Assembly: GCA_016874755.1 (NCBI GenBank)
Contig: VGTH01000022.1
Coordinates: 19,421 to 83,420 of the forward strand
DNA: 64,000 bases
From: Deltaproteobacteria bacterium
GTDB taxonomy: Bacteria; Desulfobacterota; Binatia; UBA9968
Direction of reading: 5' to 3'
The translations under genes were made by a program, and so were the position numbers. Below the pieces are notes generated by a model, which saw nothing but the letters and a program-made list of their open reading frames with translations, had not been told where the DNA came from and did no database searches. Positions 611 to 64,000 of the stretch are shown here, piece by piece (positions within the stretch are counted from its first letter, which is position 1; every line of letters starts with the position of its first letter).

Positions 611-681
611 TATCTCGCGCAGAGGCGCAGAGATCGCAGAGAAAAAATATTTTCCGAACTCAGCGCCTCGGCGCGAGATAT
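611..681. repeat. Intergenic hairpin repeat of the GCAGAG family (REP-like); stem begins with the shared 15-mer GTATCTCGCGCAGAG
   Basis: Arm gtatctcgcgcagaggcgcagagatcgcagag is paired with downstream ctcagcgcctcggcgcgagatat. The same 15-mer starts the hairpin at 16853. Confidence 0.6.
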
Positions 682-5525: not shown

Positions 5526-6102
5526 CCGAGCCAAAGCGCGGCTCGGTGCCGGCGCGCAGCCGCTGAATATTGCCGCGGTGGCGCCAAACGATCATGACGG
5601 CAAGAAGAACTCCCATGCCGACTAAAACCGGCGGATAGGCTAAAAGCCACAAAGCTATTGGGGCAGCGGCAGCAGCGGCAATCGAGCCCAATGAAACGAT
5701 GCGGCTGCTGCCAATCACCCCAGCGAAAACCCCGACGAAAACCAACGTGGCGAGCGGCGCCAAGGCCAGGAAAACCCCCAACGCCGTGGCCACTCCCTTC
5801 CCACCTTTAAACTTAAGGTAGACTGGATAGAGATGTCCCAGAAACGCCGCGATGCCGGCGCAGGCGATCGCCAGTTCCGCTAAATTCATCCGGCGCCCAA
5901 CCACAACCGGCAGGACTCCTTTGGCGACGTCGATGACTAACGTCAGTATTCCCTGACGCTTGCCGACGACGCGGGCAACGTTCGTGGCGCCGACGTTGCC
6001 GCTGCCGGCACTGCGGACATCGACACCGGCGAGCTTTCCTAACACATAGCCGCTCGGGATCGCACCGATGAAATAGGCGCAAAGAATCAACAAAATTTCC
6101 AT
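5512..6102 (-). CDS. plsY: Glycerol-3-phosphate acyltransferase PlsY
   Basis: N-terminus GAIPSGYVLGKLAGVDVRSAGSGNVGATNVARVVG is a strong PlsY signature. 196 aa membrane protein. Confidence 0.85.
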   Translation of the reverse strand: MEILLILCAYFIGAIPSGYVLGKLAGVDVRSAGSGNVGATNVARVVGKRQGILTLVIDVAKGVLPVVVGRRMNLAELAIACAGIAAFLGHLYPVYLKFKGGKGVATALGVFLALAPLATLVFVGVFAGVIGSSRIVSLGSIAAAAAAPIALWLLAYPPVLVGMGVLLAVMIVWRHRGNIQRLRAGTEPRFGSASSR

Positions 6103-8597: not shown

Positions 8598-9746
8598 ATG
8601 GAATCAGCCCTCGCTTATGGTCTACAAGGCCTGTTTCTCGGCGTCGTGAACATCACCTTGCCCAAGGTGATCATGATCTTAATCGGTTCCGGGCTGCTCT
8701 ATCTCGGCATTAAGAAAGGCTACGAGCCGTTGTTGCTCGTGCCCATTGGTTTTGGCGCCATTCTGGTCAACATTCCGCTGTCCGAGATGATGCACGACGG
8801 CGGTTTTCTGAGATTTTTCTACAACATCGGCGTCAGCACGGAAATCTTTCCGCTGCTGATTTTCCTTGGCATCGGCGCCATGACCGACTTTCAGCCGCTC
8901 CTGCAAAATCCGAAAATTATTCTGCTCGGCGCCGCCGGCCAGTTCGGGATTTTCCTAACTCTATTGCTCGCGCTGGCGCTCGGTTTCGACAAGCTCGACG
9001 CCGTCGCCGTCGCGGTCATCGGTGCCTGCGACGGCCCGACGGCGATTTACGTCAGCTCGAAGTTCGCGCCGCATATGCTGGGCGCCGTATCGGTCGCTGC
9101 GTACTCTTACATGTCGCTCGTGCCGCTCATCCAGCCGCCGATCATGCGCGCGCTGACCACCGAGAAAGAACGGCAGATCGTCATGGGCGCGGCCAAGCTC
9201 GAGCCGATCTCAAAGACAACCAAGATCGTTTTCCCCATCGCTGTCACCATATTTGCGTCGATCCTAGCGCCCAAAGGCGCGCCGTTGATCGGCACGGTTA
9301 TGCTTGGCAATTTGCTGCGCGAGTGCGGCGTGGTCGAGCGCTTGAAAAGTGCGTCGGAGAACGAGATCGCCAACATCGTTACCCTGCTCCTCGGTCTGTG
9401 CATCGGCGCGACCATGGAGGCCGACAAATTTCTCAAAACCCAAACCCTGCTCATCCTCGCTTTGGGCTTCATCGCCATCAGCCTCGACACCGCCGTCGGC
9501 GTGCTGTTCGGCAAAGCGATGTGTTTTTTCACCGGCGGCAAAGTCAACCCGCTGATTGGCGCCGCCGGCATCTCGGCGTTTCCGATGTCGGCTCGGGTCG
9601 TGCAGGCGGAAGGACAAAAGTACAATAAGAAGAGCTATCTGCTCATGCATGCCATGAGCGCCAACGCCGGCGGCCAAATCGGTTCGGTGATAGCCGCCGC
9701 GGTCATGCTCTCGGTGCTGCAGGGCATGGGCATTGTCGGCAAATAA
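8598..9746 (+). CDS. Na+-transporting decarboxylase beta subunit (OadB/MmdB/GcdB family)
   Basis: 382-aa polytopic membrane protein with the conserved decarboxylase-beta N-terminus (LGLFLG...IGSGLLYLGIKKGYEPLLLVPIGFG). Confidence 0.85.
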   Translation: MESALAYGLQGLFLGVVNITLPKVIMILIGSGLLYLGIKKGYEPLLLVPIGFGAILVNIPLSEMMHDGGFLRFFYNIGVSTEIFPLLIFLGIGAMTDFQPLLQNPKIILLGAAGQFGIFLTLLLALALGFDKLDAVAVAVIGACDGPTAIYVSSKFAPHMLGAVSVAAYSYMSLVPLIQPPIMRALTTEKERQIVMGAAKLEPISKTTKIVFPIAVTIFASILAPKGAPLIGTVMLGNLLRECGVVERLKSASENEIANIVTLLLGLCIGATMEADKFLKTQTLLILALGFIAISLDTAVGVLFGKAMCFFTGGKVNPLIGAAGISAFPMSARVVQAEGQKYNKKSYLLMHAMSANAGGQIGSVIAAAVMLSVLQGMGIVGK

Positions 9747-15163: not shown

Positions 15164-15507
15164 GGCTAAAAATCCCCCGCGCACTGCGTAGGCAAGTAAA
15201 ATGCCAGCGCCGGGTGCGGCCTAACATGCTGATTTTACAGCACTTGTTACTGACCTGTGTTTGCTTCGAGCACAAAATTGGACATGCCCGGACAAATATT
15301 GACCCATCTGTGCAAGGAGGCCTGCGGGACCGACAACGGCAGCCTGGGAGGTGTATTGATCGTGAATCGAGCCCAAAGGGGTCATTCCTATCTGACGAAA
15401 TTTTGGCGCAATTGACAAGCTAGACGTTTACGGACAGTGATAGGCAAATTGATCGCTGGAGTCTAGCCGAATGAAGCTAGAGAAAGGGTATATCGATTAG
15501 GATTTTT

Positions 15508-15542
15508 CTCGCGCAAAGGCGCAAAGGTTTGCGTCTTTTGCG
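15508..15542. repeat. Intergenic hairpin (GCAAAG family, REP-like) just 3' of the amidohydrolase gene
   Basis: The perfect hairpin is cgcaaaggcgcaaagg/tttgcgtcttttgcg. The interval spans ctcgcgcaaaggcgcaaaggtttgcgtcttttgcg. Confidence 0.55.
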
Positions 15543-16852: not shown

Positions 16853-16931
16853 GTATCTCGCGCAGAGAACGCAGAGGACGCAAAGCTCGGAGGTATTTTT
16901 ACTTTGCGTCCTTTGCGCCTCTGCGCGAGAC
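16853..16931. repeat. Long intergenic hairpin (GCAGAG family, REP-like) sharing its first 15 nt with the hairpin at 611
   Basis: Arm gtatctcgcgcagagaacgcagaggacgcaaag pairs with ctttgcgtcctttgcgcctctgcgcgagac, a stem of about 28 bp. Confidence 0.6.
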
Positions 16932-32906: not shown

Positions 32907-34745
32907 ATGGCCGCAACCTCTGACACTCGACAGCTTAGCTGGACGCTCGCTTGGGCCGTGGTTTTCTGCGACATAGGCACTTCGGTCTACTACGTCCCGG
33001 GTATTTTGTACGGCAACGTCGGCGACAAGACTCCGTTTTTCATTCTTCTGACCACCCTCGGCTTCATTCCGCTAGCGCTCAAGTACATTGAGATTACCTG
33101 GCGCAACCCAGAGGGCGGCGGCGTCGTCACGATCACGACTAAGGCCTTTGGTCCCATGTGGGGTTGCCTGGGCGGCATGCTGATCACTACCAGTTACTTT
33201 CTCACGGCGGCGATCTCAGCGGTTTCCGGGTTCCACTATATCGCCTCGGTGGTGCATGCGCTCGATAACTATATCGTCATATTGGCTTGCACCGGCCTGG
33301 TCGCACTGGCGATCTTGAACGTCATCGGCATTCGCGAAAGCGCCATGGCCGCGCTGATCATGGCGGTGGCGGCGTTTGGCGTCGATATTCTGGTCATTTT
33401 GTTTTCGGTCAAAGATTTCTCCGCAAGCCAGTGGACCCAGATGCTGCAGAGCCTCCAGCCTGGTCGTGAAATGCCGTTCCATAGTTTGCTCGTCGGCTTC
33501 GCCGCAGCGTGGCTGGCTTTCTCCGGCCTGGAAAGCATCAGCCAGCTGAGCCCAGCCATGCGCCTGCCGCTGCGCAAAACAACCCGCTGGGCGATGTACG
33601 GCGTCATGGCGAGCATGCTGATCACGGCGCCCATGTTAAGCCTGCTATCGATCAATCTGCTCGCGCCGGAGTTCAAGGCAACCCAGAGCGAGCGATTCAT
33701 TTCGCAAATCGCTTCGGTATCCGGCGGCTTTGGCTTGCAGCTGGCCGTGGTCGTCAGCGCTTCCAGCCTGCTGCTGTTTGCCGCCAACACCGCGATCATC
33801 GGCGCCTACCATGTCTTTCTCGCGCTCGCCAACACCGACTTTCTGCCGCGCGTCATCGCGCTGCGCAGCATTCGCTTTAACAGCCCGCACATCGCCATCA
33901 TCGTCGCCACCGTGGTGCCGATCGCGGTCATCGTCGCCACCAGCGGCGAGCTCGGCATCTTGGGCGAGATGTACGCGTTTGGATTGCTCGGTGCGTTTGT
34001 TTTTTCCTCGCTCAGCCTGGACATCATCCGCTGGCGCCTCGGCCGCCGCGACGTCGGCTTTTGGATCGGCGCACTGACCACGGTCATGCTTGCGGTGGCG
34101 TGGTGCGTCAATTTGGTCGAGAAAGAGCTGGCCACCCTCTTCGGCGGCGCGCTCACAATCCTGGGCATGCTCATCGCGGTGGGTGTGCGGCGTGCCTGGT
34201 TTGTCGATTTGCTCTCGCGGGTTCCCGCCATCCAGCGGCTGCAGGCACGCGCCTATCTCGCTTCGGAAGCGTTGGTGGATGACGAGCTCAAGGGCTTGGT
34301 CACACTGGCCGATGCCGCCGAGCTGAAAGCGCTTTATCCCGGCTCCACGCTCGTGGCGCTGCGCGGCGAGACCCCGGCGCTGCTCCAACAGGCGATCCAC
34401 ATCGCCAAGGGCAAAGGCGAAACCGCGCTGTATTGCATCTACGTCGAGGAGTGGCCCGGTTTGCTTAACGGCAACACGCCGCACCGTCCCAATGAGGAAG
34501 GCATTCGCACGCTGCGTTTCGCAGTCCAGCATCTGCGCGGCAAGAACGTCGAAGTGATACCCATCTGGATGGTGTCGCACAACGCCGCCGACGCCATTGC
34601 TTCGGCCGCCAAAGCACTCGACGTCGAGAGTGTTTTGATCGGCCAGTCGCGCCGCTCGGCGTTTTATCACATGCTGCGCGGCCATGTCGTCAAAGGGCTC
34701 ACCAGGAAACTGCCGCGCGATTGCCACCTGATGATCTTCAACTGA
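32907..34745 (+). CDS. APC-family amino-acid permease fused to C-terminal universal stress protein (UspA) domain
   Basis: 12 TM helices. About 150-aa USP C-terminus (ALYCIYVEE...LIGQSRRSAFYHMLRGHV). 612 aa. Confidence 0.8.
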   Translation: MAATSDTRQLSWTLAWAVVFCDIGTSVYYVPGILYGNVGDKTPFFILLTTLGFIPLALKYIEITWRNPEGGGVVTITTKAFGPMWGCLGGMLITTSYFLTAAISAVSGFHYIASVVHALDNYIVILACTGLVALAILNVIGIRESAMAALIMAVAAFGVDILVILFSVKDFSASQWTQMLQSLQPGREMPFHSLLVGFAAAWLAFSGLESISQLSPAMRLPLRKTTRWAMYGVMASMLITAPMLSLLSINLLAPEFKATQSERFISQIASVSGGFGLQLAVVVSASSLLLFAANTAIIGAYHVFLALANTDFLPRVIALRSIRFNSPHIAIIVATVVPIAVIVATSGELGILGEMYAFGLLGAFVFSSLSLDIIRWRLGRRDVGFWIGALTTVMLAVAWCVNLVEKELATLFGGALTILGMLIAVGVRRAWFVDLLSRVPAIQRLQARAYLASEALVDDELKGLVTLADAAELKALYPGSTLVALRGETPALLQQAIHIAKGKGETALYCIYVEEWPGLLNGNTPHRPNEEGIRTLRFAVQHLRGKNVEVIPIWMVSHNAADAIASAAKALDVESVLIGQSRRSAFYHMLRGHVVKGLTRKLPRDCHLMIFN

Positions 34746-34827
34746 ACGCTGCCAGCCCCTACGCCTTTAGTGCGATTGAATCTCAATGCCGGCGATTCTA
34801 TATTGCCAGTCCACGCGTGCACACGTC

Positions 34828-36666
34828 ATGCAGCCGACTCACGACACTCGCCAGCTCAATTGGTTTTTGGCTTGGGCCGTTGTCTTTTGCGACATTGGCA
34901 CTTCGGTCTACTACGTTCCCGGCATCATGTATGGCCATGTCAAAGATGCCACGCCGTTCTTTGTGCTGCTGACAACCGCCGGCTTCATTCTACTCTCGTT
35001 CAAATACATCGAAATCTCCTGGCGCAACCCCGAGGGCGGTGGCGTCGTGACGATCACCTCGAAAGCCTTCGGCCCCATGTGGGGTTGCCTGGGCGGCATG
35101 CTGATAACCGTCGATTATTTTCTTACGACCGCGATCTCGGCGGTCTCGGGCTTTCAATATCTCGGCAGCGCCTTCCCTGCCCTCGATTCACATATCGTCC
35201 TTTTGTCCTGCGCCGGCGTCGGCGTGCTCGCGGCATTGAATATCGTCGGCATCCGCGAGAGCGCCGCGGTCTCGCTGGTGATGGCCTGCGCGTCTTTTCT
35301 CGTTAATCTCGTCGTCATGGGCGCGGCGTTTGCCTATATGGATGGCGCCCAATGGCAGACAGGTCTCAGCAAGCTCGGCACCGCCAAGGGGATATCTTCC
35401 TACGAACTGCTGGTCGGCTTTGCATCGGCCTGGCTGGCGTTCTCAGGCCTCGAAAGCATCAGCCAGTTGAGCCCGACCATGCGCCTGCCGCTGCGCAAAA
35501 CTACTCGTTGGGCGATGGGCGCCGTGATGTTTACCATGGTGGTCACTTCGCCGATGTTGACCGCGCTTTCGATCGGCCTTTTGCCGGAACATTTCAAAGC
35601 CACCGAAAGCGAGCGCTTCATCTCCGAACTCGGCTCCATCGTCGGCGGGTTGGGCGTGAAATTGGCGGTGGTGTTGACCGCTACTAGCTTGCTGCTGTTT
35701 GCCGCCAACACGGCGATCATCGGCGCCTATCACGTGTTTCTCGCCTTGGTCAAAGGCGACTTCATGCCGCGCATCTTGGCGGTGCGCAACACCACATTTA
35801 ATTCTCCACACATCGCCGTGGGAATAGCTACGATTGTCCCGGTGCTGATCATCCTCATGAGCGGCGGCCAGATGAAAATTTTGGGCGACATGTACGCCTT
35901 CGGTTTGCTTGGCGCGTTTGTCTTTTCTTCGCTCAGCCTCGACAAGATTCGTTGGAACCTGGGCCGGCGCGATATCGGGTTTTGGCTGGGATTTTTAACC
36001 ACAGTAATGGTGATCGTGGCATGGGGCGTAAACCTGATCGAAAAACAGCTCGCCACTTGGTTCGGCGGCGGCGTCACACTGCTCGGCCTATTGATCGCCA
36101 TGGGCGTGCGGCGCGCCTGGTTCGTCGATCTACTCGTCCAGATTCCGTTTATTCAGAAGCTACAAGCGCGCGCCTATCGCGCCTCGGAAGACTTGGTCGA
36201 AGATGAGCTCAAAGGTCTGATGACGCTCACCGAAGCGGTGGAAGTAAAGCCGCTCTACTCGTCGACCACGTTGCTGGCGGTGCGCGACGATAGCCCGAGC
36301 CTGGTCCAAGAAGCGGTCACGCGCGTCAAGGGCAAAGGCGAAGCGGCGCTTTATTGCATTTACGTCGAGGAATGGCCGGGCTTGTTTGCCGGCGAGACGC
36401 CCCATGTCCCTAACGAGCAAGGCGTGCAGACGCTCAAGGCCGTGCTGCAAAACGCGCGCGCCAAGGGCGTCGAGATCGTGCCGATCTGGGCAGTGTCGCA
36501 CAACGCCGCCGAAGCGATCGCCAACGCCGCCAAAGCGCTCGACGTCGACTCGGTGATCATCGGCCAGTCGCGCCGCTCGGCGTTTTATCACATGCTGCGC
36601 GGCCACGTGATCAAGGGATTGATGAAAAGACTGCCGCGGGATGTTCACTTGATGATCTGCAATTGA
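34828..36666 (+). CDS. APC-family permease-USP fusion, tandem paralogue of 32907-34745
   Basis: Roughly 65-70% identical by eye, including the shared RNPEGGGVVTIT...KAFGPMWGCLGGMLIT and USP tail. ATG at 34828. Confidence 0.8.
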   Translation: MQPTHDTRQLNWFLAWAVVFCDIGTSVYYVPGIMYGHVKDATPFFVLLTTAGFILLSFKYIEISWRNPEGGGVVTITSKAFGPMWGCLGGMLITVDYFLTTAISAVSGFQYLGSAFPALDSHIVLLSCAGVGVLAALNIVGIRESAAVSLVMACASFLVNLVVMGAAFAYMDGAQWQTGLSKLGTAKGISSYELLVGFASAWLAFSGLESISQLSPTMRLPLRKTTRWAMGAVMFTMVVTSPMLTALSIGLLPEHFKATESERFISELGSIVGGLGVKLAVVLTATSLLLFAANTAIIGAYHVFLALVKGDFMPRILAVRNTTFNSPHIAVGIATIVPVLIILMSGGQMKILGDMYAFGLLGAFVFSSLSLDKIRWNLGRRDIGFWLGFLTTVMVIVAWGVNLIEKQLATWFGGGVTLLGLLIAMGVRRAWFVDLLVQIPFIQKLQARAYRASEDLVEDELKGLMTLTEAVEVKPLYSSTTLLAVRDDSPSLVQEAVTRVKGKGEAALYCIYVEEWPGLFAGETPHVPNEQGVQTLKAVLQNARAKGVEIVPIWAVSHNAAEAIANAAKALDVDSVIIGQSRRSAFYHMLRGHVIKGLMKRLPRDVHLMICN

Positions 36667-43538: not shown

Positions 43539-44606
43539 ATGATTATCGACGCCGACGCCCACGTGGTGGAAACCGAACAGACCTGGAGCTACATGGATGG
43601 TTCCGACAAGAAGTTTCGCCCGCAGCTTTTCAGTTCCACCGATAACCCCAACATGCAGTACTGGTTCTGCGAAGGGAAATCGGTGGGCTTCCGTCCGCCG
43701 ACGTTGACCGAGCAGGAATTGATCGCGCTCTCAAAAGAAACCGGCCGCGAATTGAAGACCGCCGCAGGCGCGCGCGAGCTGCGCGATGTCGAACTGCGGT
43801 TATCGCACATGGACCGGCTCGGCATCGACGTGCAGGTGCTATTCAACACCATGTGGATCGCCCGCGTCGCCGACAAACCTGACGCGGAGATCGCCCTGTG
43901 CGGCTCGTGGAACCGCTGGATGGCCGACATGTGGAAGGCGGGCAAGAATCGGCTGCGCTATTCGTGTGTCGTGCCGGCGATGACGCCAAGCGAGGCAGTT
44001 CAGCAAATGCGCTTCGCCAAAGAGAACGGCGCGGTGGCAGTCAGTCTGCGCCCCTTCGAAAACGATCGGCATCTGGTCGACCCCTATTTTTATCCGATCT
44101 ACGAAGAAGCAAGCCGGCTCGATATGGCCATCGCGGTGCACATTGCCAACGGCAGTCCGGCGCTGATGGATCAGTTCAAACCGCGCTATGATAAAATGGG
44201 CGGCTTCGCGCAGTTCCGGGTGCCGACGGTGATCACCTGTTTGTCGCTGATGATGAGCGAGCTGCCGAAAGTTTTCCCCAAACTGCGCTGGAGCTTCGTC
44301 GAAGCGTCGGCACAATGGGTCCCCTGGGTGGTCAAAGAAGCGACGCGCCGCAGTGGCAGCAAAGGCTTTCCCAAACTGCCGTTCAAAGACTTCAATATCT
44401 ACGTCACGACGGAGACCAACGACGACTTCGACTTCGTGCTGCGCTACGCCAGCGAAGACAACGTCGTCATCGGCACCGACTATGGCCATACCGACGCTTC
44501 GAGCGAGGTCGACGCCATCGATATCTTTCGCGCCAACCCAGAAGTCACCGACCCGGTGAAAAAGAAAATTTTGGACGACAACCCGCGGCGGCTCTACGGG
44601 CTATGA
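43539..44606 (+). CDS. Amidohydrolase-2 family metal-dependent hydrolase
   Basis: MIIDADAHV, a conserved HxH metal site at the N-terminus. C-terminal ...DDNPRRLYGL parallels the ORF at 1-605. RBS gaggag 7 nt upstream. Confidence 0.75.
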   Translation: MIIDADAHVVETEQTWSYMDGSDKKFRPQLFSSTDNPNMQYWFCEGKSVGFRPPTLTEQELIALSKETGRELKTAAGARELRDVELRLSHMDRLGIDVQVLFNTMWIARVADKPDAEIALCGSWNRWMADMWKAGKNRLRYSCVVPAMTPSEAVQQMRFAKENGAVAVSLRPFENDRHLVDPYFYPIYEEASRLDMAIAVHIANGSPALMDQFKPRYDKMGGFAQFRVPTVITCLSLMMSELPKVFPKLRWSFVEASAQWVPWVVKEATRRSGSKGFPKLPFKDFNIYVTTETNDDFDFVLRYASEDNVVIGTDYGHTDASSEVDAIDIFRANPEVTDPVKKKILDDNPRRLYGL

Positions 44607-44610
44607 AAAG

Positions 44611-44683
44611 CTAGCCCGAATTATTCATGCGACGGGGAAAACCCATGACACTGCGTCGATCGAAGTGGAACTCTGGAGGAGCG
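44611..44683 (+). repeat. 73-bp intergenic repeat element, copy 1 (REP/MITE-like)
   Basis: ctagcccgaattattcatgcgacggggaaaacccatgacactgcgtcgatcgaagtggaactctggaggagcg is about 95% identical to 57897-57969 and to the reverse complement of 62791-62863. Confidence 0.8.
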
Positions 44684-44814
44684 CAGGCATCAGCGCAAAT
44701 CGTTCGGTTTAATGCGCCGATGCTGGGCATCTCTTCGGCCTTTTCACTGCGATTCGCAGAGCAGGGCGACCGGCGGTCGCCCCTACAAGGCGGCGTCGCA
44801 GCGGATATCTGTTG

Positions 44815-44873
44815 CCTTCGCTCCGGAAGAGTTTCACTTCGATCGCGCCGCAGCGATGAATAGTCCGGGCTGG
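44815..44873 (-). repeat. Degenerate, internally deleted inverted copy of the 73-bp element (forms inverted pair with copy 1)
   Basis: gccttcgctccggaagagtttcacttcgatcgcgccgcagcgatgaatagtccgggctgg aligns with the reverse complement of the 73-mer. It lacks about 22 bp. Confidence 0.55.
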
Positions 44874-45841: not shown

Positions 45842-46082
45842 AACGCATGCACCTTTCTATTCTTCTGGACATCAATTTAGCGGGCACGTAATATCAACTG
45901 CTCGCGCCAGTTGCATAACATGGAAACCGTGCATGTGAAAAGTTCGCGCAGCAGAGCGGAAGAATTCACCACCGAGACACCGAGAACACAGAGTTCGCAA
46001 GAGTGGTTCCAGGATTTCATAGCTCTTCACTCCGCGCCCCCAGCGCCCCTGCGCGAGATAATCCGCATCCGAGAGGTTCAAT

Positions 46083-57266: not shown

Positions 57267-57783
57267 AGTCGACCCCGAAAAAGAAAAAAAACAACGCCGC
57301 GACCTCCTAGAAAAAGAAAAAAAACAACGCCGCGACTTCCTAGAAAAAGAAAAAAAACAACGCCGCGACTTCCTAAAACAGGCCTCTCTCATGTTAAACG
57401 GCATGAAAAAGCAGCTGATGAAGGAAATGCAGGGCCGCGTCAAAGGCGAAACCGAAGGCCTCAAAGACGAGGGCCGCGACACCTACGACTTGGCCAGCGA
57501 CGAGCGCGATCGCGAAATCAATTTTATCCTAAACGACCGCGAGCGCGAGAAGCTGCTGGCCATCGACGAAGCCCTGCAGCGGATCAAAGAAAAGTCCTAC
57601 GGGATCTGTGAGAGCTGCGAAGGAGAGATTCAGCTAGGCCGCCTGAAGGTCTTACCCTTCACCCGTCTCTGCGTCAAATGCCAGGAAGAAAACGAGAAAG
57701 AAAGCAAACGGCAGAAGACCCTCGAGGATGAACGGGGTTATCGCAAGCTGGTGGTCAATGACTTCGAAGAAGAGGGGTTTTAG
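57256..57783 (+). CDS. DksA/TraR-family C4 zinc-finger protein with N-terminal 3x(EKEKKQRRDFL) tandem repeat
   Basis: CESCEGEI...CVKCQ zinc finger and the DksA-like coiled-coil region. The N-terminus is encoded by a perfect 3 x 33-bp repeat. Confidence 0.7.
   Translation: MATKVDPEKEKKQRRDLLEKEKKQRRDFLEKEKKQRRDFLKQASLMLNGMKKQLMKEMQGRVKGETEGLKDEGRDTYDLASDERDREINFILNDREREKLLAIDEALQRIKEKSYGICESCEGEIQLGRLKVLPFTRLCVKCQEENEKESKRQKTLEDERGYRKLVVNDFEEEGF
57277..57375 (+). repeat. Perfect 3 x 33-bp in-frame tandem repeat, each unit containing an A8 homopolymer
   Basis: Unit gaaaaagaaaaaaaacaacgccgcgac[c/t]tccta is repeated three times head to tail. Confidence 0.9.
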
Positions 57784-57859: not shown

Positions 57860-57896
57860 ATTAAAACTATAAACCTTATTCGCCCTTGGCCGGAAC

Positions 57897-57969
57897 CTAG
57901 CCCGAATTATTCATGCGACCGGGAAAACCCATGACACTGTGTCGATCGAAGTGGAACTCTGGAGGAGCG
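57897..57969 (+). repeat. 73-bp intergenic repeat element, copy 2
   Basis: ctagcccgaattattcatgcgaccgggaaaacccatgacactgtgtcgatcgaagtggaactctggaggagcg. Confidence 0.8.
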
Positions 57970-58079
57970 ACAATCTCAGTCGCTTGGTCTCGGCATAACT
58001 CACTATTTTCACTTGTTTGAGTTTGATGTAACCTACTCAGGTACTAGGCCCTGCTGACAGAAATATGGAGACAACCACT

Positions 58080-58748
58080 ATGACTGAGATAAGAGTTGTC
58101 ATCGCCGATGACCATGCGCTGTTCCGCGACGGATTGCGCAAGATTCTTGCCCTGGAAAAAGACATCTTGGTCGTAGGCGAAGCCGCCAATGGCGACGAGG
58201 CGACCAAAGTCGCAGAGCGCACAAAACCCGATGTCCTGCTCTTGGATTTGAAAATGCCCAAAGGTGAGCTTGTGCAAAACTTGCTCGACGTCACGGCGCG
58301 CACGCCGGCCACCCGAGTCGTAGTCTTAACCGCGTTTTCCGACGACGAGAACGTTCTCAACGCCGCTAAGAGCGGCGCGAAAGGCTATGTCTCGAAGGGC
58401 GTTCCCTCGGCGACACTGGTGCAAGCGATCAAGAGTGTCCACGGCGGGAGTCCATGGATCGACAAGGAAATTCCCTCATGGGAAACTTTCCTGGAAATCG
58501 CCAGCGGCCAAACCGAGGCTCGCCCCATGCCGACGCCGCGCACGGACAACGCCATCGGCACCTTAACTAAAAGGGAGCTGGAAATTCTCCGCCTGGTCGC
58601 TGAGGGTCTGACCAACGAAGAGATCGGCAAAAAAATCTTCATCAGCGAGAAGACCGTCAAAACCCATTTGACCAACATTTTCGACAAGCTGAAAGTCAAT
58701 AACCGCTTTAAGGCGGCCTTAATGCTGCGTGGTCGGACGACTCACTAG
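58080..58748 (+). CDS. NarL/FixJ-family response regulator (REC + LuxR-type HTH) with ~40-aa insert between domains
   Basis: REC motif VVIADDH...DVLLLDLKMP. LuxR HTH LTKRELEILRLVAEGLTNEEIGKKIFISEKTVKTHLTNIF. RBS ggaga. Confidence 0.85.
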   Translation: MTEIRVVIADDHALFRDGLRKILALEKDILVVGEAANGDEATKVAERTKPDVLLLDLKMPKGELVQNLLDVTARTPATRVVVLTAFSDDENVLNAAKSGAKGYVSKGVPSATLVQAIKSVHGGSPWIDKEIPSWETFLEIASGQTEARPMPTPRTDNAIGTLTKRELEILRLVAEGLTNEEIGKKIFISEKTVKTHLTNIFDKLKVNNRFKAALMLRGRTTH

Positions 58749-58765
58749 TCGGGAGTGCGTCGACC

Positions 58766-59968
58766 ATGGCGAGCGACATCAAGACCCCACTCGAAGAAGG
58801 CTGGATCATCGAGCGCGAGAAGGCGCTCGCGTGGCTGCGGCTGGCCTTTGCCATACTGGCGGTGATTGTCATCCAACTCAATCCATCGCGGGTCGCGCGC
58901 TTCCCGGCGCTGTCAACTTTTTCTCTGGCAACGTTTCTGCTCTACAGCACCTCGATATTGTACCTCCTCCGCAAAAACCGGGTGAGATCGACTCGCCTCA
59001 TCCTCGTGACCACGCCCCTCGATGTGCTTTGGATCGCGCTGATCGTGCTCTCCACCGGCGGCTCACGCACGCCGTTTTTCACGTATTATTCTTTCCCGGT
59101 CATCAGCGCGAGCCTGCGCTGGGGCATCAAGGGAAGTCTGCCGGTGGCATTCACCGGCGTCGCCATCTATTTCACCATTCGTTTAACTTTGCGGGCAGAG
59201 TCGGGCGGCGAGCCGATCGGCATCGACACCGTTGTCGTGCGTTGCTTCTATTTAATCGCTCTAGCTTGCATCTTCGGCTACATCAGCGAATTCGAAAAGC
59301 GCCAGAATCAAAAACTCCTGGCGCTGTCGCGCACAGCGGGCCAAATCTCCGCGCTCCAAGAGCGGCGCCGGATCATGTTCGACCTGCACGACGGCATTCT
59401 ACAGTCGCTGGCAACCCTCATTCTGCGCTTGGAGAGTTGCCGAGGAAAGTTGGCAGACAGACCCAAAGACTCGGAAATCGAAAGCGATCTGCGCTCAATG
59501 GAAGAGCTGACCCGCGACTCCATGAACGAGATTCGCCAGTTCCTCTCCGGCAAGGAAACCAAGCCACTGGTGCATGGGACACTGTTGAAGCGGTTGCGCG
59601 AAGAGCTGCGCTTCCTGCAGCAAGGCTTGAATATGGAAGTTATTTTGGGAACCGACCCCGAAGATGTGGACCTGCCCGAGACGGTGGAGACCGAAATCTA
59701 CTACGTTTTGCGCGAAGGTTTGGCCAACGTCACGCGCCATTCGCACGCGTCACGCATCGATCTGCAACTGATTCAAAAGATCATCTCTTTGGAAGGAAAT
59801 ATCGAGGACAACGGCGCCGGCATGAACCTAGCCAGCATGCAAAACGGACAGGGCTTGGGGCTGCAAAGCATGCGCGAACGCATAAAGAAAATCGGGGGAG
59901 AACTCCTGGTTAAGTCCTCCCCCGGTGGTGGCACAAAAATTTCGTTTACGGTGCCACTAACGAACTAA
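58766..59968 (+). CDS. Sensor histidine kinase, HisKA_3 (NarX/DesK-type) with multi-TM N-terminal domain
   Basis: H-box HDGILQSLATL, HATPase_c (GQGLGLQSMRERI...GG) and 4-6 predicted TM helices. Confidence 0.8.
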   Translation: MASDIKTPLEEGWIIEREKALAWLRLAFAILAVIVIQLNPSRVARFPALSTFSLATFLLYSTSILYLLRKNRVRSTRLILVTTPLDVLWIALIVLSTGGSRTPFFTYYSFPVISASLRWGIKGSLPVAFTGVAIYFTIRLTLRAESGGEPIGIDTVVVRCFYLIALACIFGYISEFEKRQNQKLLALSRTAGQISALQERRRIMFDLHDGILQSLATLILRLESCRGKLADRPKDSEIESDLRSMEELTRDSMNEIRQFLSGKETKPLVHGTLLKRLREELRFLQQGLNMEVILGTDPEDVDLPETVETEIYYVLREGLANVTRHSHASRIDLQLIQKIISLEGNIEDNGAGMNLASMQNGQGLGLQSMRERIKKIGGELLVKSSPGGGTKISFTVPLTN

Positions 59969-59993
59969 AGTGGGCACCCGCCAACGCTCAGCC

Positions 59994-60362
59994 TTACTCA
60001 CCTTTCGCAGGAACGAATGTCATTTTTGTCAGGAAATTCTTTTCGCCCTTGGTCACGTATTCGACCGTCGCTGAAGAGCCCAATCCCACGTTGGCCATTT
60101 TCACTTTGGTCTCTCCGATTCCCACGACCTTCGTCTTGGCGTTGAAATCCAGCGTCACCAGCTTGCCATCCTTCGTCACGACGATCATATAGTTTTTCTC
60201 GGTGTCGAGTAAACCGATATCACCGCCAACTTTCTCTGCTTTGGCTTTCGCGGGCTCCGCTTTTTTCGCCTCGGCCTTTTTCTCCTGCGCGATGACCGGC
60301 ATGCTCAAACTCGCTGCAAGTACAATCGCCAGACCGCCCCCTAAATTCAGTTTCTTTGTCAT
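59994..60362 (-). CDS. Small exported protein, paralogue A (unknown function)
   Basis: Signal peptide, (K/A/E)-rich linker, then GDIGLLDTEKNYMIVVTKDGKLVTLDF...LGSSATVEYVTKGEKNF...PAKGE. RBS aaggag. Confidence 0.45.
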   Translation of the reverse strand: MTKKLNLGGGLAIVLAASLSMPVIAQEKKAEAKKAEPAKAKAEKVGGDIGLLDTEKNYMIVVTKDGKLVTLDFNAKTKVVGIGETKVKMANVGLGSSATVEYVTKGEKNFLTKMTFVPAKGE

Positions 60363-60416
60363 TTCCCGTTCTCCTTGCTCGTTCGCTCTCGATTCTCTCT
60401 AACCGCCGCCTAAGGT

Positions 60417-60818
60417 TTACTCACCCTTTGCCGGTAGGTACTCAATGTTGGATGCAATATTCTTGTCACCGTCCTTGGTGTAGGTGACGGTCGCCGACGA
60501 TCCCAAACCGATGTTACCCATCTTGCTGGCCTGCAAAATGCGCTGCGTCGGCTGAAACTTTGCGTCATAATCGATGGTCACCAGCTTGCCTTCTTTGGTA
60601 ACGATGATCATGTAGTTCTTTTCCGTGTCCAATAAACCGACGTCGCCAGCTACCTTGGTTGCCTTGGCCGGCTCTGCTTTTGTTTCGGCTTTGGCCGGCG
60701 CAGGCGCAGGCGCCGGTGCCGGTGCCGGCGCGGGCTTTTCATCCTGCGTTGAACAAGCTGCCAGCGCAAACAACCCGGATGCTACGATAATATTCGTAAT
60801 CAGAGAACCCTTTTGCAT
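60417..60818 (-). CDS. Small lipoprotein, paralogue B, with (PA)n linker
   Basis: Lipobox LAACS, a (PA)7 repeat, then GDVGLLDTEKNYMIIVTKEGKLVTIDY...LGSSATVTYTKDGDKN...PAKGE. RBS ggaggt. Confidence 0.45.
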   Translation of the reverse strand: MQKGSLITNIIVASGLFALAACSTQDEKPAPAPAPAPAPAPAKAETKAEPAKATKVAGDVGLLDTEKNYMIIVTKEGKLVTIDYDAKFQPTQRILQASKMGNIGLGSSATVTYTKDGDKNIASNIEYLPAKGE

Positions 60819-60941
60819 TGAGACCTCCACGGTATATTTAGGACTTTGGTGATAATTAGAAGTCTAAAGTCCTATACTTTAGCCGCGCGTTAATTGTCAA
60901 GCAGAAAATCCTCGCGCGTAAATATTTTTGTTTGAAGAGAC

Positions 60942-60975
60942 AAAAAAAGGGGAGCCGGCTGGCTCCCCTTTTTCC
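60942..60975. terminator. Bidirectional rho-independent terminator 3' of the porin gene
   Basis: AAAAAAA GGGGAGCC ggct GGCTCCCC TTTTTCC. Confidence 0.7.
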
Positions 60976-60993
60976 ATGTCGGTGGTCGCCCGT

Positions 60994-62448
60994 TTAGAAC
61001 GAGGCCCGGAAGTTCAGTTGCACGTTGGTCCAATCGCAGCTCTTGCCCCGCGTCGAACGGCCAGCGCTGCTGCAACCCAGGTTCTCTTGCGCTTCGGTTC
61101 TGCCGCTGCGCAGGTTCGACGCGTCATACCACTGCACCGTACCGCCCACGCTGATCCGGTTCGGCAGGAAGTAAAACAAGTCCCACTCACGAATCAGAAC
61201 ACGGTTGCGCGAGAATTCACTGCCCGTCGCACAGTTCGACCGGCCGCAGCTGACATCGTTGCGCTCGAAGTGCGTGCCGAACAGGATCGACCCCGGCGTC
61301 CCGGTGTCTCCCGTAAACCAGCCCTTCGGGCTCCACAGAAACAGGTCATGGCCGATCAGGAAGTTGCGTCCTTTGGCACCAGATCCCTGGCTGTTGCGGC
61401 CAGCATCAAGATCCCAGGCGCCGCGGATGGCACGCAGCCAGTACGGCCCCACTTTCCAACCTATACCCGTTAAGTTGTAGTCAGTCGTCCCTCGGCCGCC
61501 ACTACTCGACGGCGAGAATATAAACAGCGTCTGCCGCCCACCGCTGCCATGATCCCGAAGCCGTAGCCGGCTGCAAGCACTAAAGACCCCGGAGCCATTA
61601 GAGCTGGTGGAGTTCGTATTGCGCGGATCGTTGTTACACCAGTAGTGCATGTTCTCAAGACCAAAACCCTGGATCCATTTGTTTTTGGTCTTCGAAAACG
61701 GTTCGATCCGGGCGTAGAGCACGAAGTCCTTGCGGTCCGTGTTATTGCTATATCCGTCGCCCGCTTCGCCAAAACTCGCCATGCCGAAGTTCACTTGAAT
61801 GCGTCCCGTCGGAATATTGATGTTATCCCAGTTGAGCGTGAAGCCGTTGCCGTAGCTGCCCGTGTTCAAGCCGTTCTCGCGCGACATGATGTCGTATTCG
61901 GCCTGTGAGCCGGTGGTGCCGGAGCCTTGCCGGTAGGCGCTGACAGGCATTTCGCCGTCCATGCCAAACGCCACGCGAGGCAGCCAAGGATTGATCTTCT
62001 CAAAATGCACTTGCATCTGGCCACGCTGCAAGTCGGTTTGCCCACCGAAACCGTCGTTGTCGTAGTGCAGGTTGAATTCATAGAAGCAGTTGTTGATGCA
62101 GTAATTAAATCGCGAACGGAAGCGCCGCCCTTCGACCTCGCCGTTGGTCCGCCCAGCGTGGTCGCGGCCAGCTTGGAAGTTCATCCTCATGTGGCCTTCA
62201 AGGCTAAAGTTAATGCTCCAGCCTTTGTCCGCGGCTTCGATTGTCAAACCGGCGCCCGGACGATAACTAAAATTCGGCAGCACCACAGCGGCCGCCGTCG
62301 CTTCTTTCTTGAGCTCGATCTGCTGCTCTTTGAGCTGAGTCAGCTCCTGCTCCATCGCCTTGATCTTTTCATCAACGCTCTGGGCGGATGCTGGTGCGCC
62401 AGCAAAAAGCGCTGCCGAGAGCAGTGCCAATCCGATCCCTTTCTTCAT
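60994..62448 (-). CDS. Outer-membrane beta-barrel porin (phosphate-selective OprO/P-like or related family) with N-terminal coiled coil
   Basis: Signal peptide, an N-terminal coil (KIKAMEQELTQLKEQQIELKKE), alternating beta-strand pattern, and a C-terminal ...NFRASF with terminal Phe. Confidence 0.5.
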   Translation of the reverse strand: MKKGIGLALLSAALFAGAPASAQSVDEKIKAMEQELTQLKEQQIELKKEATAAAVVLPNFSYRPGAGLTIEAADKGWSINFSLEGHMRMNFQAGRDHAGRTNGEVEGRRFRSRFNYCINNCFYEFNLHYDNDGFGGQTDLQRGQMQVHFEKINPWLPRVAFGMDGEMPVSAYRQGSGTTGSQAEYDIMSRENGLNTGSYGNGFTLNWDNINIPTGRIQVNFGMASFGEAGDGYSNNTDRKDFVLYARIEPFSKTKNKWIQGFGLENMHYWCNNDPRNTNSTSSNGSGVFSACSRLRLRDHGSGGRQTLFIFSPSSSGGRGTTDYNLTGIGWKVGPYWLRAIRGAWDLDAGRNSQGSGAKGRNFLIGHDLFLWSPKGWFTGDTGTPGSILFGTHFERNDVSCGRSNCATGSEFSRNRVLIREWDLFYFLPNRISVGGTVQWYDASNLRSGRTEAQENLGCSSAGRSTRGKSCDWTNVQLNFRASF

Positions 62449-62790
62449 CTTTTCTGCCTCCTTTTTTCCTTCTGAAATTTTTTACTAAATATGGACCAAT
62501 TCTCACTACTTTCGGCGTGTTTTAGACCACAATACCCATATTGTCAAGTCTAAAGTTAGATCTTTTATCTGAATGTCCACGACAAATCGCGAAAAACTAA
62601 GACTTTATGGGAATAGTGGCCCATTTTCGCAACTTGAAGGGGCACCAAAGGCCGTAGGCGGAGTCGTAGCAGCGGGACTACCCGCCGAAACGGGATTGTG
62701 TCGCAATTGTCATTTTGCGGCAAAGCCGAAGAATCTGCTTCATGCAATTGCGCGAAAAAGCAGATCCCTCGCTTGCGCTCAGGATGCCTT

Positions 62791-62863
62791 CGCTCCTCCA
62801 GAGTTCCACTTCGATCGACGCAGTGTCATGGGTTTTCCCGGTCGCATGAATAATTCGGGCTAG
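62791..62863 (-). repeat. 73-bp intergenic repeat element, copy 3 (reverse orientation)
   Basis: cgctcctccagagttccacttcgatcgacgcagtgtcatgggttttcccggtcgcatgaataattcgggctag is the reverse complement of copies 1 and 2. Confidence 0.8.
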
Positions 62864-62879
62864 AGACGAAGCCGTGCGG

Positions 62880-63734
62880 CTAACTTGATGTGGTGGGCTC
62901 AGCGTCGCCGATGACAGAGCACACCGGCATGTGCGTCGTGTTGCGGTCAAAGCCGATGTTGCCGTTGCGGTCGATCAGAATGATGCCACCGCTAGCACTT
63001 AGTTTGGCGCCGAGCAAGGCGATCACCTTTTGCGCGGCTGTGGGCGCGTCGAGCCCATCTTCGAGATGGCCAACTGCGCGCTTGGCGAGCAGCAAACGGA
63101 TAAACGCCTCGCCGTGCCCCGTCCCGGAGGCGGCGCCGAACTCGTCGGCGTAGGTGCCGCAGCCGATCAGCGGCGAATCGCCGACACGGCCCGGAAGTTT
63201 TTTGAAAACACCACCGGTGGAGGTTGCGGCAGCGAGTTTGCCGCCACGGTCGCACGCCACACAGCCGACGGTGCCATGTTTGCTCTCCCAATGGCGCTTT
63301 TCACTCTCAACGATCAGCGCGTCGGGCGAACATTCGGCGAACCCGATTGAGCGAGCAAACAGGTTCGCGCCGTCGCCCGCAAGCAGCACGTGCCGGCCGT
63401 CTTCCATCACCCGCCGCGCCAGACGAACCGGATTTTTGATGCCGCAGACCGCCGCCACCGCGCCGACGCGCAGCGTATCGCCTTCCATCAGCGCGGCGTC
63501 GCATTCGACACAACCGAGACTGTTGAGGGTGGAGCCGGTGCCGGCGTTGAACAACGGATTGTCTTCGAGGATAACCACGGCCGCTTCCACGGCGTCGAGC
63601 GCCGAGCCGCCGGCGTTGAGAATTTTCTGCCCAGCCAACACGGCTTCCCTGCAGCCGGCGAGCCGCGCCGGCAGACTATCGTCCTTGATTGGACCGGCGC
63701 CGCCGTGAACGATGATCGAGGGTAGGTGTTTCAT
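62880..63734 (-). CDS. iaaA: Isoaspartyl peptidase / L-asparaginase (Ntn-hydrolase, Asparaginase_2 family)
   Basis: HGGAG N-terminus and the autoprocessing GTVG motif (HGTVGCVA). ATG at 63734. Confidence 0.8.
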   Translation of the reverse strand: MKHLPSIIVHGGAGPIKDDSLPARLAGCREAVLAGQKILNAGGSALDAVEAAVVILEDNPLFNAGTGSTLNSLGCVECDAALMEGDTLRVGAVAAVCGIKNPVRLARRVMEDGRHVLLAGDGANLFARSIGFAECSPDALIVESEKRHWESKHGTVGCVACDRGGKLAAATSTGGVFKKLPGRVGDSPLIGCGTYADEFGAASGTGHGEAFIRLLLAKRAVGHLEDGLDAPTAAQKVIALLGAKLSASGGIILIDRNGNIGFDRNTTHMPVCSVIGDAEPTTSS

Positions 63735-63796
63735 TGGCCGATCCTTTGGAAACTTTCGCATGCCAGGGCGCGATGAATCGCGTCCTATGAGGTTTT

Positions 63797-63830
63797 CGAA
63801 CTTTGCGAACTTTGCGTCTGGGCGCGAGAC
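63797..63830. repeat. Half-element of the GCAAAG/GCGCGAGAC hairpin repeat family
   Basis: cgaactttgcgaactttgcgtctgggcgcgagac closely matches the second arm of the 16853-16931 hairpin. Confidence 0.45.
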
Positions 63831-63846
63831 AATCCGAACATTCTCA

Positions 63847-64000
63847 CGCCAGCTCGCGCAGCACCGCCCGGCACGGCGAGCCGTCAGAACCCGCAAGTTT
63901 CACCGGCGGACAGAAAAGCTCGTATCGTCCCGGCGGCACTTCGGACAAATCCACGCCTTCGAGCAAGATCACACCGTGGTCGAGAAACGCCCGGTGCACC
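63847..64000 (-). CDS. 3' end of a CDS continuing beyond the window (unknown function)
   Basis: Open frame on the minus strand through the right edge (…VHRAFLDHGVILLEGVDLSEVPPGRYELFCPPVKL…). It ends at 63847. Confidence 0.3.

What the first reader, a model, noticed from the sequence alone, without database searches (positions are those of the whole stretch)
44611..44873. Novel 73-bp intergenic repeat family (3 full copies + 1 degenerate inverted copy) at gene 3' ends
Near-identical 73-mers occur at 44611-44683 (+), 57897-57969 (+) and 62791-62863 (−). Each lies immediately downstream of a stop codon or terminator. At the first locus a truncated copy in opposite orientation lies ~130 bp away (44815-44873), giving a MITE/BIME-like inverted pair. 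The flanks also share the short motif gccttcgctcc. No transposase is nearby. This looks like a REP/MITE-type element family specific to this lineage, and it could be useful as a strain marker or as a recombination hotspot.
Basis: seen in the sequence. Interest (0 to 1): 0.55.

Follow-up and report, generated by a model that had tools for sequence, protein, structure and literature searches.

The report
Small non-coding transposon (MITE) family
The repeated 73-mer is one arm of a roughly 263-bp non-coding "hitch-hiker" transposon (a MITE) scattered between genes of an uncultured Binatia-like bacterium; it is real, but it is an ordinary kind of mobile DNA, not a new type of element.

Summary
Near-identical copies lie at 44611-44691 (+), 57897-57970 (+) and 62783-62863 (-), with 0 expected by chance. 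A diverged inverted copy lies at 44809-44873.

The interpretation needs sharpening. The 73-mer is not a unit by itself. It is the left arm of a 263-bp element (44611-44873) with terminal inverted repeats of about 83 and 70 nt and CTAG at both tips. Two JGI metagenome contigs carry the same complete element in unrelated contexts, at about 96% identity.

A single arm does not fold into a hairpin, so this is not a REP/BIME-type repeat and a RAYT is not expected. The element shows no sign of coding and matches no Rfam family.

Window copies 2 and 3 are truncated solo left arms. At copy 2, a syntenic relative lacks the repeat and has two small genes there instead. Homology stops exactly at TAG|CCCGAATT, so this is an insertion followed by a deletion of about 965 bp.

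Independent Logan assemblies break exactly k-1 nt inside every copy. They also reveal a fourth locus about 3.9 kb past the window end.

I found no transposase, no copies in 185,579 reference genomes, and none in about 110 kb from relatives.

Verdict: a lineage-restricted MITE family, a new member of a known kind. The parent IS and the target duplication (TA or CTAG) remain unresolved.

The parts
44611..44873 (+). Complete 263-bp MITE: CTAG-left arm-internal region-right arm-CTGG (the right-hand CTAG is mutated). It sits between the convergent amidohydrolase and alpha/beta-hydrolase genes.
   Evidence: About 96% identical over 261-263 nt to L002 6194-5932 and L003 1278-1541, which have unrelated flanks. 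The L003 copy folds as one long hairpin, z = -6.0. Logan contigs L019 and L001 end and start 29-30 nt inside its two tips.
44611..44693 (+). Left terminal inverted repeat (arm) of the complete element. This is the '73-mer' of the finding.
   Evidence: (I1, I5).
44764..44786 (.). Internal GC-rich palindrome GGGCGACCGGCGGTCGCCCCTAC. The same palindrome also occurs as a free-standing short repeat in other loci.
   Evidence: Free-standing copies lie in L002 at 5907-5933 and 9685-9711 and in L015 at 4038-4065.
44803..44873 (-). Right terminal inverted repeat (arm). It is shorter than the left arm by an 18-nt central gap, and its tip reads CCAG instead of CTAG.
   Evidence: I5; nhmmer hit at 44871-44803, E = 1.8e-17.
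57897..57970 (+). Solo left arm (copy 2), truncated after element position 74. It is 100% identical to the L003 arm and lies about 110 nt upstream of the response-regulator gene.
   Evidence: Logan contigs L007, L008 and L009 start at 57941, which is 30 nt inside the arm's inner boundary.
57876..57900 (-). Remnant of the last codons (..VPAKGE*) of a small gene that is intact in relatives. It is cut off at the element tip and marks the insertion junction.
   Evidence: The window reads TTATTCGCCCTTGGCCGGAACCTAG|CCCGAATT. L011 reads TTATTCGCCCTTGGCGGGCACGTAG|GTCAT, which is the 3' end of its 127-aa gene. Homology resumes at window ~57979, equivalent to L011 ~2813, so about 965 bp and two genes are missing.
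62783..62863 (-). Solo left arm (copy 3), 81 nt, with weak similarity continuing to 62773. It lies 16 nt after the asparaginase stop codon, about 335 nt upstream of a porin-like gene, and abuts an unrelated palindromic repeat.
   Evidence: (I1). Logan contigs L006-L008 end at 62812 and L016-L018 end at 62834/62835.

Best explanation

The intact element is about 263 bp. It consists of a long left arm (~83 nt), a ~115-nt internal region that contains a GC-rich palindrome, and a right arm (~70 nt) that is the inverted repeat of the left. Both tips read CTAG.

The element encodes nothing. Inferred: a DDE-type transposase encoded elsewhere in the genome moves it in trans. That enzyme would recognise two blocks that are conserved between the arms: the terminal block (C)TAGCCCGRAYTATTCAT and the inner block CGATCGAAGTGRAACTCT...GGAGCGAAGGCA. 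Insertion would be at TA or CTAG sites, and CTAG is 5-fold under-represented in this DNA.

The window holds one intact copy (44611-44873) and two decayed copies, which are solo left arms truncated at positions 74 and ~81.

Shown: the copy at 57.9 kb lies at a site where relatives have no repeat, and it is associated with loss of about 965 bp and two small genes.

Inferred: transposition as the copying mechanism, the transposase family, and any effect on neighbouring genes. One possible effect is that read-through transcripts would carry a long hairpin.
For: 1. Terminal inverted repeats. Arms 44657-44693 and 44809-44845 are 84% complementary, and the terminal block matches at 16-17 of 18 positions. 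The whole element folds into a single hairpin at -70 kcal/mol, z = -6.0, whereas single arms do not fold.
2. Complete copies in three unrelated contexts. These are window locus 1, L002 and L003, at about 96% identity, with sharp boundaries at CTAG...CTAG.
3. Further copies. Solo arms lie at 57897-57970 and 62783-62863, and a fourth locus sits at the start of Logan contig L016, about 3.9 kb past copy 3.
4. Insertion polymorphism. Relatives L011, L012 and L013 are syntenic (MiaB-DksA-...-RR-HK-...-porin-asparaginase) but carry no repeat. Homology with the window ends exactly at the element tip.
5. No evidence of coding. Every variable site among the three full copies that falls in the longest ORF changes the amino acid. 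Peptides translated from the element have no homologue among 5.8 billion proteins. There is no Rfam match.
6. The copies are intergenic and the genes between them are housekeeping genes (ArgRS, RNase J, FtsK, LolA, DksA), so they are not the ends of a composite transposon.
7. Independent assemblies of two sequencing runs break k-1 nt inside each copy, as expected for a dispersed repeat.
8. The family is lineage-restricted. There are 0 hits in the GTDB representatives with two different patterns, and none in about 110 kb from relatives whose checked proteins are 74-90% identical at the amino-acid level.
Against: No autonomous partner was found. None of the 38 long ORFs scanned from across the window or the 8 from L002 has a transposase domain, and no longer element with these tips turned up.

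A target-site duplication is not demonstrated. CTAG at both tips could be a TSD, TA within a preferred CTAG target, or part of the repeat. At the one empty site the relative has GTAG, and the reading frame shows that the window's C cannot be ancestral coding sequence.

The genome-wide copy number is unknown. One JGI scan found only two further copies.

Two of the three window loci are one-armed. That needs a secondary deletion at each, which is documented only at copy 2.
Confidence: 0.75

Rival explanations
1. It is a REP/BIME-type repeat: short extragenic palindromes, alone or in inverted pairs, spread by a RAYT (IS200/IS605-like tyrosine transposase).
For: The repeats are intergenic, lie at gene 3' ends, and form an inverted pair at locus 1.
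Against: The unit is 73-91 nt, not 20-40 nt, and is not palindromic. On both strands it folds no better than shuffled sequence (z +0.3 to +2.0). The pair at locus 1 recurs as one fixed 263-bp unit with a conserved internal sequence in three contexts, unlike variable BIME arrangements. No RAYT-like ORF was seen in the window.
Confidence: 0.03
2. It is a functional non-mobile element, such as a small RNA gene, a regulatory leader or a protein-binding module. On this reading it was duplicated and kept by selection next to certain genes, and the solo arms are the functional unit.
For: The solo arms are 97-100% conserved. All three lie co-oriented between same-strand genes, with the GGAGGAGCG end facing the downstream gene. 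Copy 2 is about 110 nt upstream of a response regulator, copy 3 about 335 nt upstream of a porin-like gene, and the fourth locus has its tip 22 nt upstream of a start codon.
Against: There is no Rfam match, no stable fold of the arm and no promoter-like or terminator-like site within the arms. The repeat is absent from the orthologous sites of relatives. The arms are truncated at different internal points and abut unrelated DNA. One substitution in an arm (L003 right arm, A to C) is not compensated in its partner.
Confidence: 0.07
3. It is a remnant of another kind of mobile element that uses a non-DDE recombinase, for example ends of a site-specific or targeted element that inserts without a target duplication. 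The 263-bp unit would be an internally deleted relic rather than an element that is mobilised as such.
For: No direct repeat is visible outside CTAG at any of the three complete copies. One-armed copies are frequent. The arms are unusually long for a bacterial IS.
Against: The architecture of terminal inverted repeats with palindromic tips is the standard DDE-transposon architecture. Three near-identical 263-bp copies in different contexts imply that the short form itself was copied.
Confidence: 0.1
4. It is an assembly artefact or a duplicated gene fragment.
For: The source is a metagenome-assembled contig. The reverse strand of the arm is open in one frame and ends in TAG.
Against: The same junctions appear in independent Logan assemblies of SRR7990526, SRR7053297, ERR14789951 and SRR16108669. 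Gene order across copies 2 and 3 matches the relatives. The translated peptides match no protein.
Confidence: 0.02

Closest known systems
Correia repeat-enclosed elements (CREE / nemis) of Neisseria
   Same: Both are short (100-160 bp versus 263 bp), non-coding, intergenic elements with terminal inverted repeats and a TA-containing target, and in both no transposase is encoded within the element. Transcripts that include the element fold into a long hairpin. For Correia elements, promoter, IHF-site and RNase III effects are documented (review PMC10969869).
   Different: There is no sequence similarity. The arms here are about 70-83 nt rather than about 26 nt. No promoter-like site was detected. 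The copy number seen here is a handful, not hundreds. RNase III processing was not tested.
MITEPsy1 of Pseudomonas syringae (IS5-family derived; PMC3189936)
   Same: It is a MITE that inserts at CTAG (or YTAA) and duplicates those 4 nt. The element here carries CTAG at both tips of all intact copies.
   Different: MITEPsy1 is 100 nt long with 18-nt TIRs that begin GGAAGG, and it has an identified parent, ISPsy2. Here the tips read CCCGAATT, the arms are 4 times longer, no parent is known, and the one empty site has GTAG rather than CTAG.
IS630/Tc1-mariner family elements and their MITEs
   Same: IS630-family elements duplicate TA, and IS630 prefers TA within 5'-CTAG-3' (Tenzen & Ohtsubo 1991, cited in PMC2170065). 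C-TA-[GCCCG...CGGGC]-TA-G fits every intact copy, and the TA/TAG at the empty site is host sequence.
   Different: No IS630-type transposase was found and there is no TIR similarity that I could test. TA versus CTAG cannot be distinguished because CTAG is palindromic.
REP / BIME elements mobilised by RAYTs
   Same: Both are intergenic and occur at 3' ends of genes, sometimes in inverted pairs.
   Different: The unit here is not a hairpin-forming palindrome, is 2-3 times longer, and forms a fixed 263-bp element.

Membership tests
MITE (non-autonomous TIR transposon) | Small size (tens to a few hundred bp) and no transposase gene | tested here: met
   The element is 263 bp. Variable sites in its longest ORF all change the amino acid. 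Translated peptides have no homologue.
MITE (non-autonomous TIR transposon) | Terminal inverted repeats | tested here: met
   Arms of about 83 and 70 nt. The terminal block matches at 16-17 of 18 positions and the inner 37 nt are 81-86% complementary. The whole element forms a hairpin with z = -6.0.
MITE (non-autonomous TIR transposon) | Several copies in unrelated genomic contexts | tested here: met
   Four loci lie on or next to the window contig and two more lie on JGI contigs, all with different flanks. The genome-wide count is unknown.
MITE (non-autonomous TIR transposon) | Presence/absence polymorphism with a precise junction (evidence of insertion) | tested here: met
   Copy 2 is absent from syntenic L011, L012 and L013, and homology ends exactly at the element tip. 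This is one site and one junction only.
MITE (non-autonomous TIR transposon) | Target-site duplication flanking the element | tested here: inconclusive
   CTAG is present at both tips of the intact copies, and no direct repeat lies outside it. The empty site in L011 reads GTAG. TA, CTAG or no TSD are all possible.
MITE (non-autonomous TIR transposon) | A cognate autonomous IS with matching TIRs in the same or a related genome | tested here: inconclusive
   No transposase domain was found in the 38 long window ORFs or 8 L002 ORFs scanned. No longer element with these tips was found in the genome, metagenome, viral or plasmid collections.
REP/BIME (RAYT-associated) | The unit is a short imperfect palindrome that forms a stable hairpin | tested here: not met
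   All six arm foldings (three copies, both strands) have z between +0.33 and +1.96 against shuffles.
REP/BIME (RAYT-associated) | A RAYT gene in the genome, often flanked by the repeats | not testable with these tools
   Only the 64-kb window and a few kb of flanks from this genome were available. No such gene was seen there.
IS630/Tc1-mariner-derived MITE | TA duplication and TIRs matching an IS630-family transposase gene | tested here: inconclusive
   The flanks are compatible with C-TA/TA-G. No transposase was found.
IS5-family-derived MITE (MITEPsy1-like) | 4-nt CTAG/YTAR duplication and TIRs matching an IS5-family element | tested here: inconclusive
   CTAG is present at both tips, but the empty site in the relative is GTAG, and CTAG would be an in-frame stop codon in the ancestral gene. 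No parent IS was found.
Any Rfam RNA family | Covariance-model match at or near the gathering score | tested here: not met
   There were 0 matches at gathering thresholds over the whole window. Only chance-level hits (E >= 0.56) appeared around locus 1.

The most novel reading that the evidence does not exclude
The long, two-block arm is itself a functional module. On this reading, solo arms do not arise from random decay. They come from a one-ended or abortive transposition and repair process that deletes adjacent DNA, as with the ~965 bp and two genes lost at copy 2. They then persist, always co-oriented with the downstream gene, as cis-regulatory inserts. The clustering of four loci within 22 kb, against none in the first 44 kb of the window, would reflect local hopping.
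Probability: 0.1. Interest if true: 0.45.

Novelty: new member of a known kind. Interest (0 to 1): 0.25.

Why it matters
This MITE family was not found in Rfam or in 185,579 reference genomes. It marks one uncultured Binatia-like population, so it could serve as a strain or population marker.

It explains why short-read assemblies of this organism fragment at these points. It also documents one case where an insertion is associated with loss of two genes. None of this changes what is known about bacterial mobile DNA.

The practical value is for annotation, because these stretches should be masked and not called as ORFs. It is also a lead to an unidentified transposase with unusually long recognition arms.

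Tried and rejected
- Exact 22-mer scan of the GTDB representative genomes: 0 hits.
- Degenerate two-block arm pattern that matches both left and right arms: 0 hits in the genomes and 0 in viral contigs.
- blastn of the full element against PLSDB plasmids: no match.
- Protein searches with peptides translated from the element, once with a single frame and once with five further open stretches from three other frames concatenated, hoping that gene callers had called ORFs on other copies: nothing. These two searches produced no information beyond 'not called, not coding'.
- Empty-site comparison for locus 1 using relatives with a >=90% identical alpha/beta-hydrolase (L004, L005): gene order differs beyond that gene and nothing aligns.
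- Empty-site comparison for copy 3 and for the fourth locus against L011, L014 and L015: the intergenic DNA is too diverged.
- Test of whether copy 3 is a complete but diverged element: the rest of the region scores no better than shuffles. Part of it is instead a different palindromic repeat that is also present in L005.
- Composite-transposon idea (inverted copies 1 and 3 bracketing 18 kb): rejected, because the genes between them are core housekeeping genes.
- DGR, CRISPR and att-site ideas: rejected on the sequence. The differences between copies are not adenine-specific, there is no array, and the genes between the direct copies are core genes.
- The last contig look-up, on an 84%-identical relative (L020), did not reach the relevant sites.

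Full report
**Observation**

The three near-identical copies are real. A 72-mer search with up to 3 mismatches finds exactly 44612-44683 (+), 57898-57969 (+) and 62791-62862 (-), and none in 100 shuffles. Gap-free extension gives 81 nt at 98% for copies 1 and 3, and 74 nt at 99% for copies 2 and 3. The degenerate inverted copy at 44809-44873 is also real.

**What the unit really is**

A scan of JGI metagenome contigs with the invariant 22-mer returned two contigs of sample Ga0194131, L002 and L003. Both carry the whole stretch corresponding to window 44611-44873, not just the 73-mer. They are about 96% identical over 261-263 nt. Their flanks are unrelated, and the boundaries are sharp at CTAGCCCGAATTATTCAT...ATGAATA(A/G)TCCGGGCTAG.

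The element is therefore about 263 bp. It has a left arm of about 83 nt and an internal region of about 115 nt that contains the palindrome GGGCGACCGSCGGTCGCCCC. Its right arm of about 70 nt is the inverted repeat of the left, with an 18-nt gap.

A single arm does not fold. The z-scores are +0.3 to +2.0 against shuffles on both strands for all three copies. The whole element folds into one long hairpin at -70 kcal/mol with z = -6.0. This is the architecture of a transposon with terminal inverted repeats, not of a REP hairpin.

**Not coding, not a known RNA**

Several frames are open across the element. In the longest ORF (78 codons), the sites that vary among the three full copies all change the amino acid. 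Peptides from the element have no homologue among 5.8 billion predicted proteins. Rfam gives nothing at gathering thresholds for the window and only chance-level hits around locus 1. No promoter-like site lies in the arms. The one terminator-like hit at locus 1 that touches an arm is a fortuitous pairing between the end of the amidohydrolase gene and the element tip.

**Context**

The organism is a MAG deposited as 'Deltaproteobacteria bacterium' (protein MBM4262674.1, contig of 89,943 bp). The more distant named homologues of its histidine kinase (about 61% identity) come from Candidatus Binatia.

The genes between the copies are ordinary core genes: MazG, a 2-hydroxyacid dehydrogenase, ArgRS, an acyltransferase, RNase J, FtsK, LolA, a MiaB-like enzyme, DksA, a two-component pair, a porin-like protein and an asparaginase. 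The inverted copies 1 and 3 therefore do not bracket a composite transposon. None of the 38 long ORFs scanned from across the window, and none of the 8 scanned from L002, has a transposase domain.

**Evidence for insertion**

The closest relatives with long contigs are L011, L012 and L013, whose histidine kinase is 77% identical. They share the gene order MiaB-DksA-...-RR-HK-two small genes-porin-asparaginase-cyclase-EamA-TPP enzyme.

Between DksA and the response regulator, these relatives have two small genes of 127 and 137 aa. These are paralogues of the pair downstream of the kinase. The window lacks them. It keeps only the last 21-25 nt of the 127-aa gene, TTATTCGCCCTTGGCCGGAACCTAG, against L011 TTATTCGCCCTTGGCGGGCACGTAG. 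Homology stops exactly where the arm begins: window TAG|CCCGAATT against L011 TAG|GTCAT. It resumes at window ~57979, equivalent to L011 ~2813.

Copy 2 is therefore an insertion into the 3' end of that gene. It was followed by a deletion running from element position 74 through about 965 bp of host DNA.

Copy 3 sits in an intergenic region that is 431 nt in the window and 246 nt in L011, but the DNA is too diverged to define an empty site. Its arm ends after about 81 nt. There it abuts a different ~79-nt palindromic repeat, which also occurs in L005 in an unrelated place at 80% identity.

**Independent confirmation and a fourth locus**

Logan assemblies break at branch points of a k=31 graph.
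- L007 and L008, contigs from two different runs, are exactly window 57941-62812. They begin and end 30 nt inside copies 2 and 3.
- L001 starts 30 nt inside the right tip of locus 1.
- L019 ends 29 nt inside the left tip of locus 1.
- L016 covers window 62835-64000 plus 2,748 nt beyond the window. It ends in copy 3 and begins with another arm tip, TTCCCGGTCGCATGAATAATTCGGGCTAG|ACGTTTCGAG.

The tip at the start of L016 lies 22 nt upstream of a 169-aa gene. This is a fourth locus about 3.9 kb past copy 3. That makes four loci within about 22 kb, against none in the first 44.6 kb of the window.

**Distribution**

Two patterns were scanned: the exact 22-mer, and a degenerate two-block pattern that every known left and right arm satisfies. 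Both give 0 hits in one genome for each of 185,579 species. The two-block pattern also gives 0 hits in viral contigs, and the full element has no match in plasmids. A profile of the eight arms finds nothing in about 110 kb from relatives whose checked proteins are 74-90% identical at the amino-acid level. The family is therefore narrow, and by present evidence its copy number is low to moderate.

**Target site**

All intact tips read CTAG, and the right tip in the window has mutated to CTGG. No direct repeat lies outside CTAG. CTAG is strongly avoided in this DNA: 46 observed against 237 expected.

Two known behaviours fit. IS630-type elements duplicate TA and prefer TA within CTAG (Tenzen & Ohtsubo 1991, cited in PMC2170065). 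IS5-type elements and their MITEs, such as MITEPsy1, duplicate CTAG (PMC3189936).

At the one empty site the relative has GTAG, so TA or TAG is host sequence. The C cannot be ancestral there, because it would create an in-frame TAG stop in the small gene. That slightly favours TA, or a C that belongs to the element, but a single site cannot decide. From memory only, IS1380- and IS701-type elements also make 4-bp duplications. This is a lead, not a test.

**Mechanism**

- Shown: the architecture of terminal inverted repeats, dispersal of identical short copies into unrelated intergenic sites, insertion at one site relative to relatives, no sign of coding capacity, and decay to solo arms with an adjacent deletion.
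- Inferred: mobilisation in trans by a DDE transposase encoded elsewhere, which would bind the two blocks conserved between the arms.
- Inferred: any regulatory consequence. By analogy with Correia and ERIC elements (PMC10969869), one would be a long hairpin in read-through transcripts at locus 1.

**Verdict**

This is a genuine, lineage-restricted MITE family and a new member of a well-known kind. Interest is low to moderate. The open points are the parent transposase, the target duplication, the genome-wide copy number, and why one-armed copies are so frequent.

Noticed in passing
just outside the window: L016 1-29 (window-equivalent ~66720-66748, + orientation): A fourth locus of the same repeat. 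Logan contig L016 begins with the 29-nt arm tip ...GGGCTAG, followed by unique DNA, 22 nt upstream of a 169-aa gene that precedes a TPP-enzyme gene. This gives four loci within about 22 kb and none in window 1-44600.
   Followed up: partly
window 62707-62785 (and L005 10498-10573): A different ~79-nt imperfect palindromic repeat (TTGTCATTTTGCGGCAAAGCCGAAGAATCTGCTTC...AAGCAGATCCCTCGCTTGCGCTCAGGATGCC) directly abuts copy 3. It recurs at 80% identity in an unrelated context in a relative's contig, so it looks like a second, more widespread REP-like family.
   Followed up: partly
window 44764-44786; L002 5907-5933 and 9685-9711; L015 4038-4065; L005 ~4050-4070: The GC-rich palindrome GGGCGACCGSCGGTCGCCCCTAC inside the MITE also stands alone in other contigs, including relatives that lack the MITE. 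It may be an independent REP-like repeat that became part of the MITE's interior.
   Followed up: partly
window 613-632 (+), 659-678 (-), 15507-15526 (+), 16911-16930 (-), 46039-46058 (-): A third short repeat family, TCTCGCGCAGAGGCGCAGAG, has five hits at up to 3 mismatches against 0.03 expected. The pair at 613/659 is inverted around an AT-rich spacer. All hits are intergenic.
   Followed up: partly
window 57876-58079 compared with L011 1821-2911: The window lineage has lost two small secreted or lipoprotein-like genes (127 and 137 aa, ending ..VPAKGE) between dksA and the response regulator. A paralogous pair survives at 59994-60362 and 60417-60830.
   Followed up: yes
whole window: CTAG is 5-fold under-represented (46 observed, 237 expected from base composition), and GTAC and TATA are similarly low. 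Three of the 46 CTAG sites are tips of the MITE.
   Followed up: partly
window 57277-57378: Three tandem 33-nt repeats (94-100% identical) inside the N-terminal part of the DksA-like ORF encode EKEKKQRRD(L/F)L three times. The relatives' DksA is shorter (153 aa).
   Followed up: no
window 32907-34745 and 34786-36666: Two tandem paralogous genes (amino-acid permease plus Usp domain) are 75-78% identical at the DNA level.
   Followed up: no
window 44597-44618: The last codons of the amidohydrolase gene (CGGGCTA) pair with the MITE tip (TAGCCCG) and are followed by a T-rich run, which creates a terminator-like hairpin at the junction. This could be coincidence or a hint of a target preference.
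   Followed up: no
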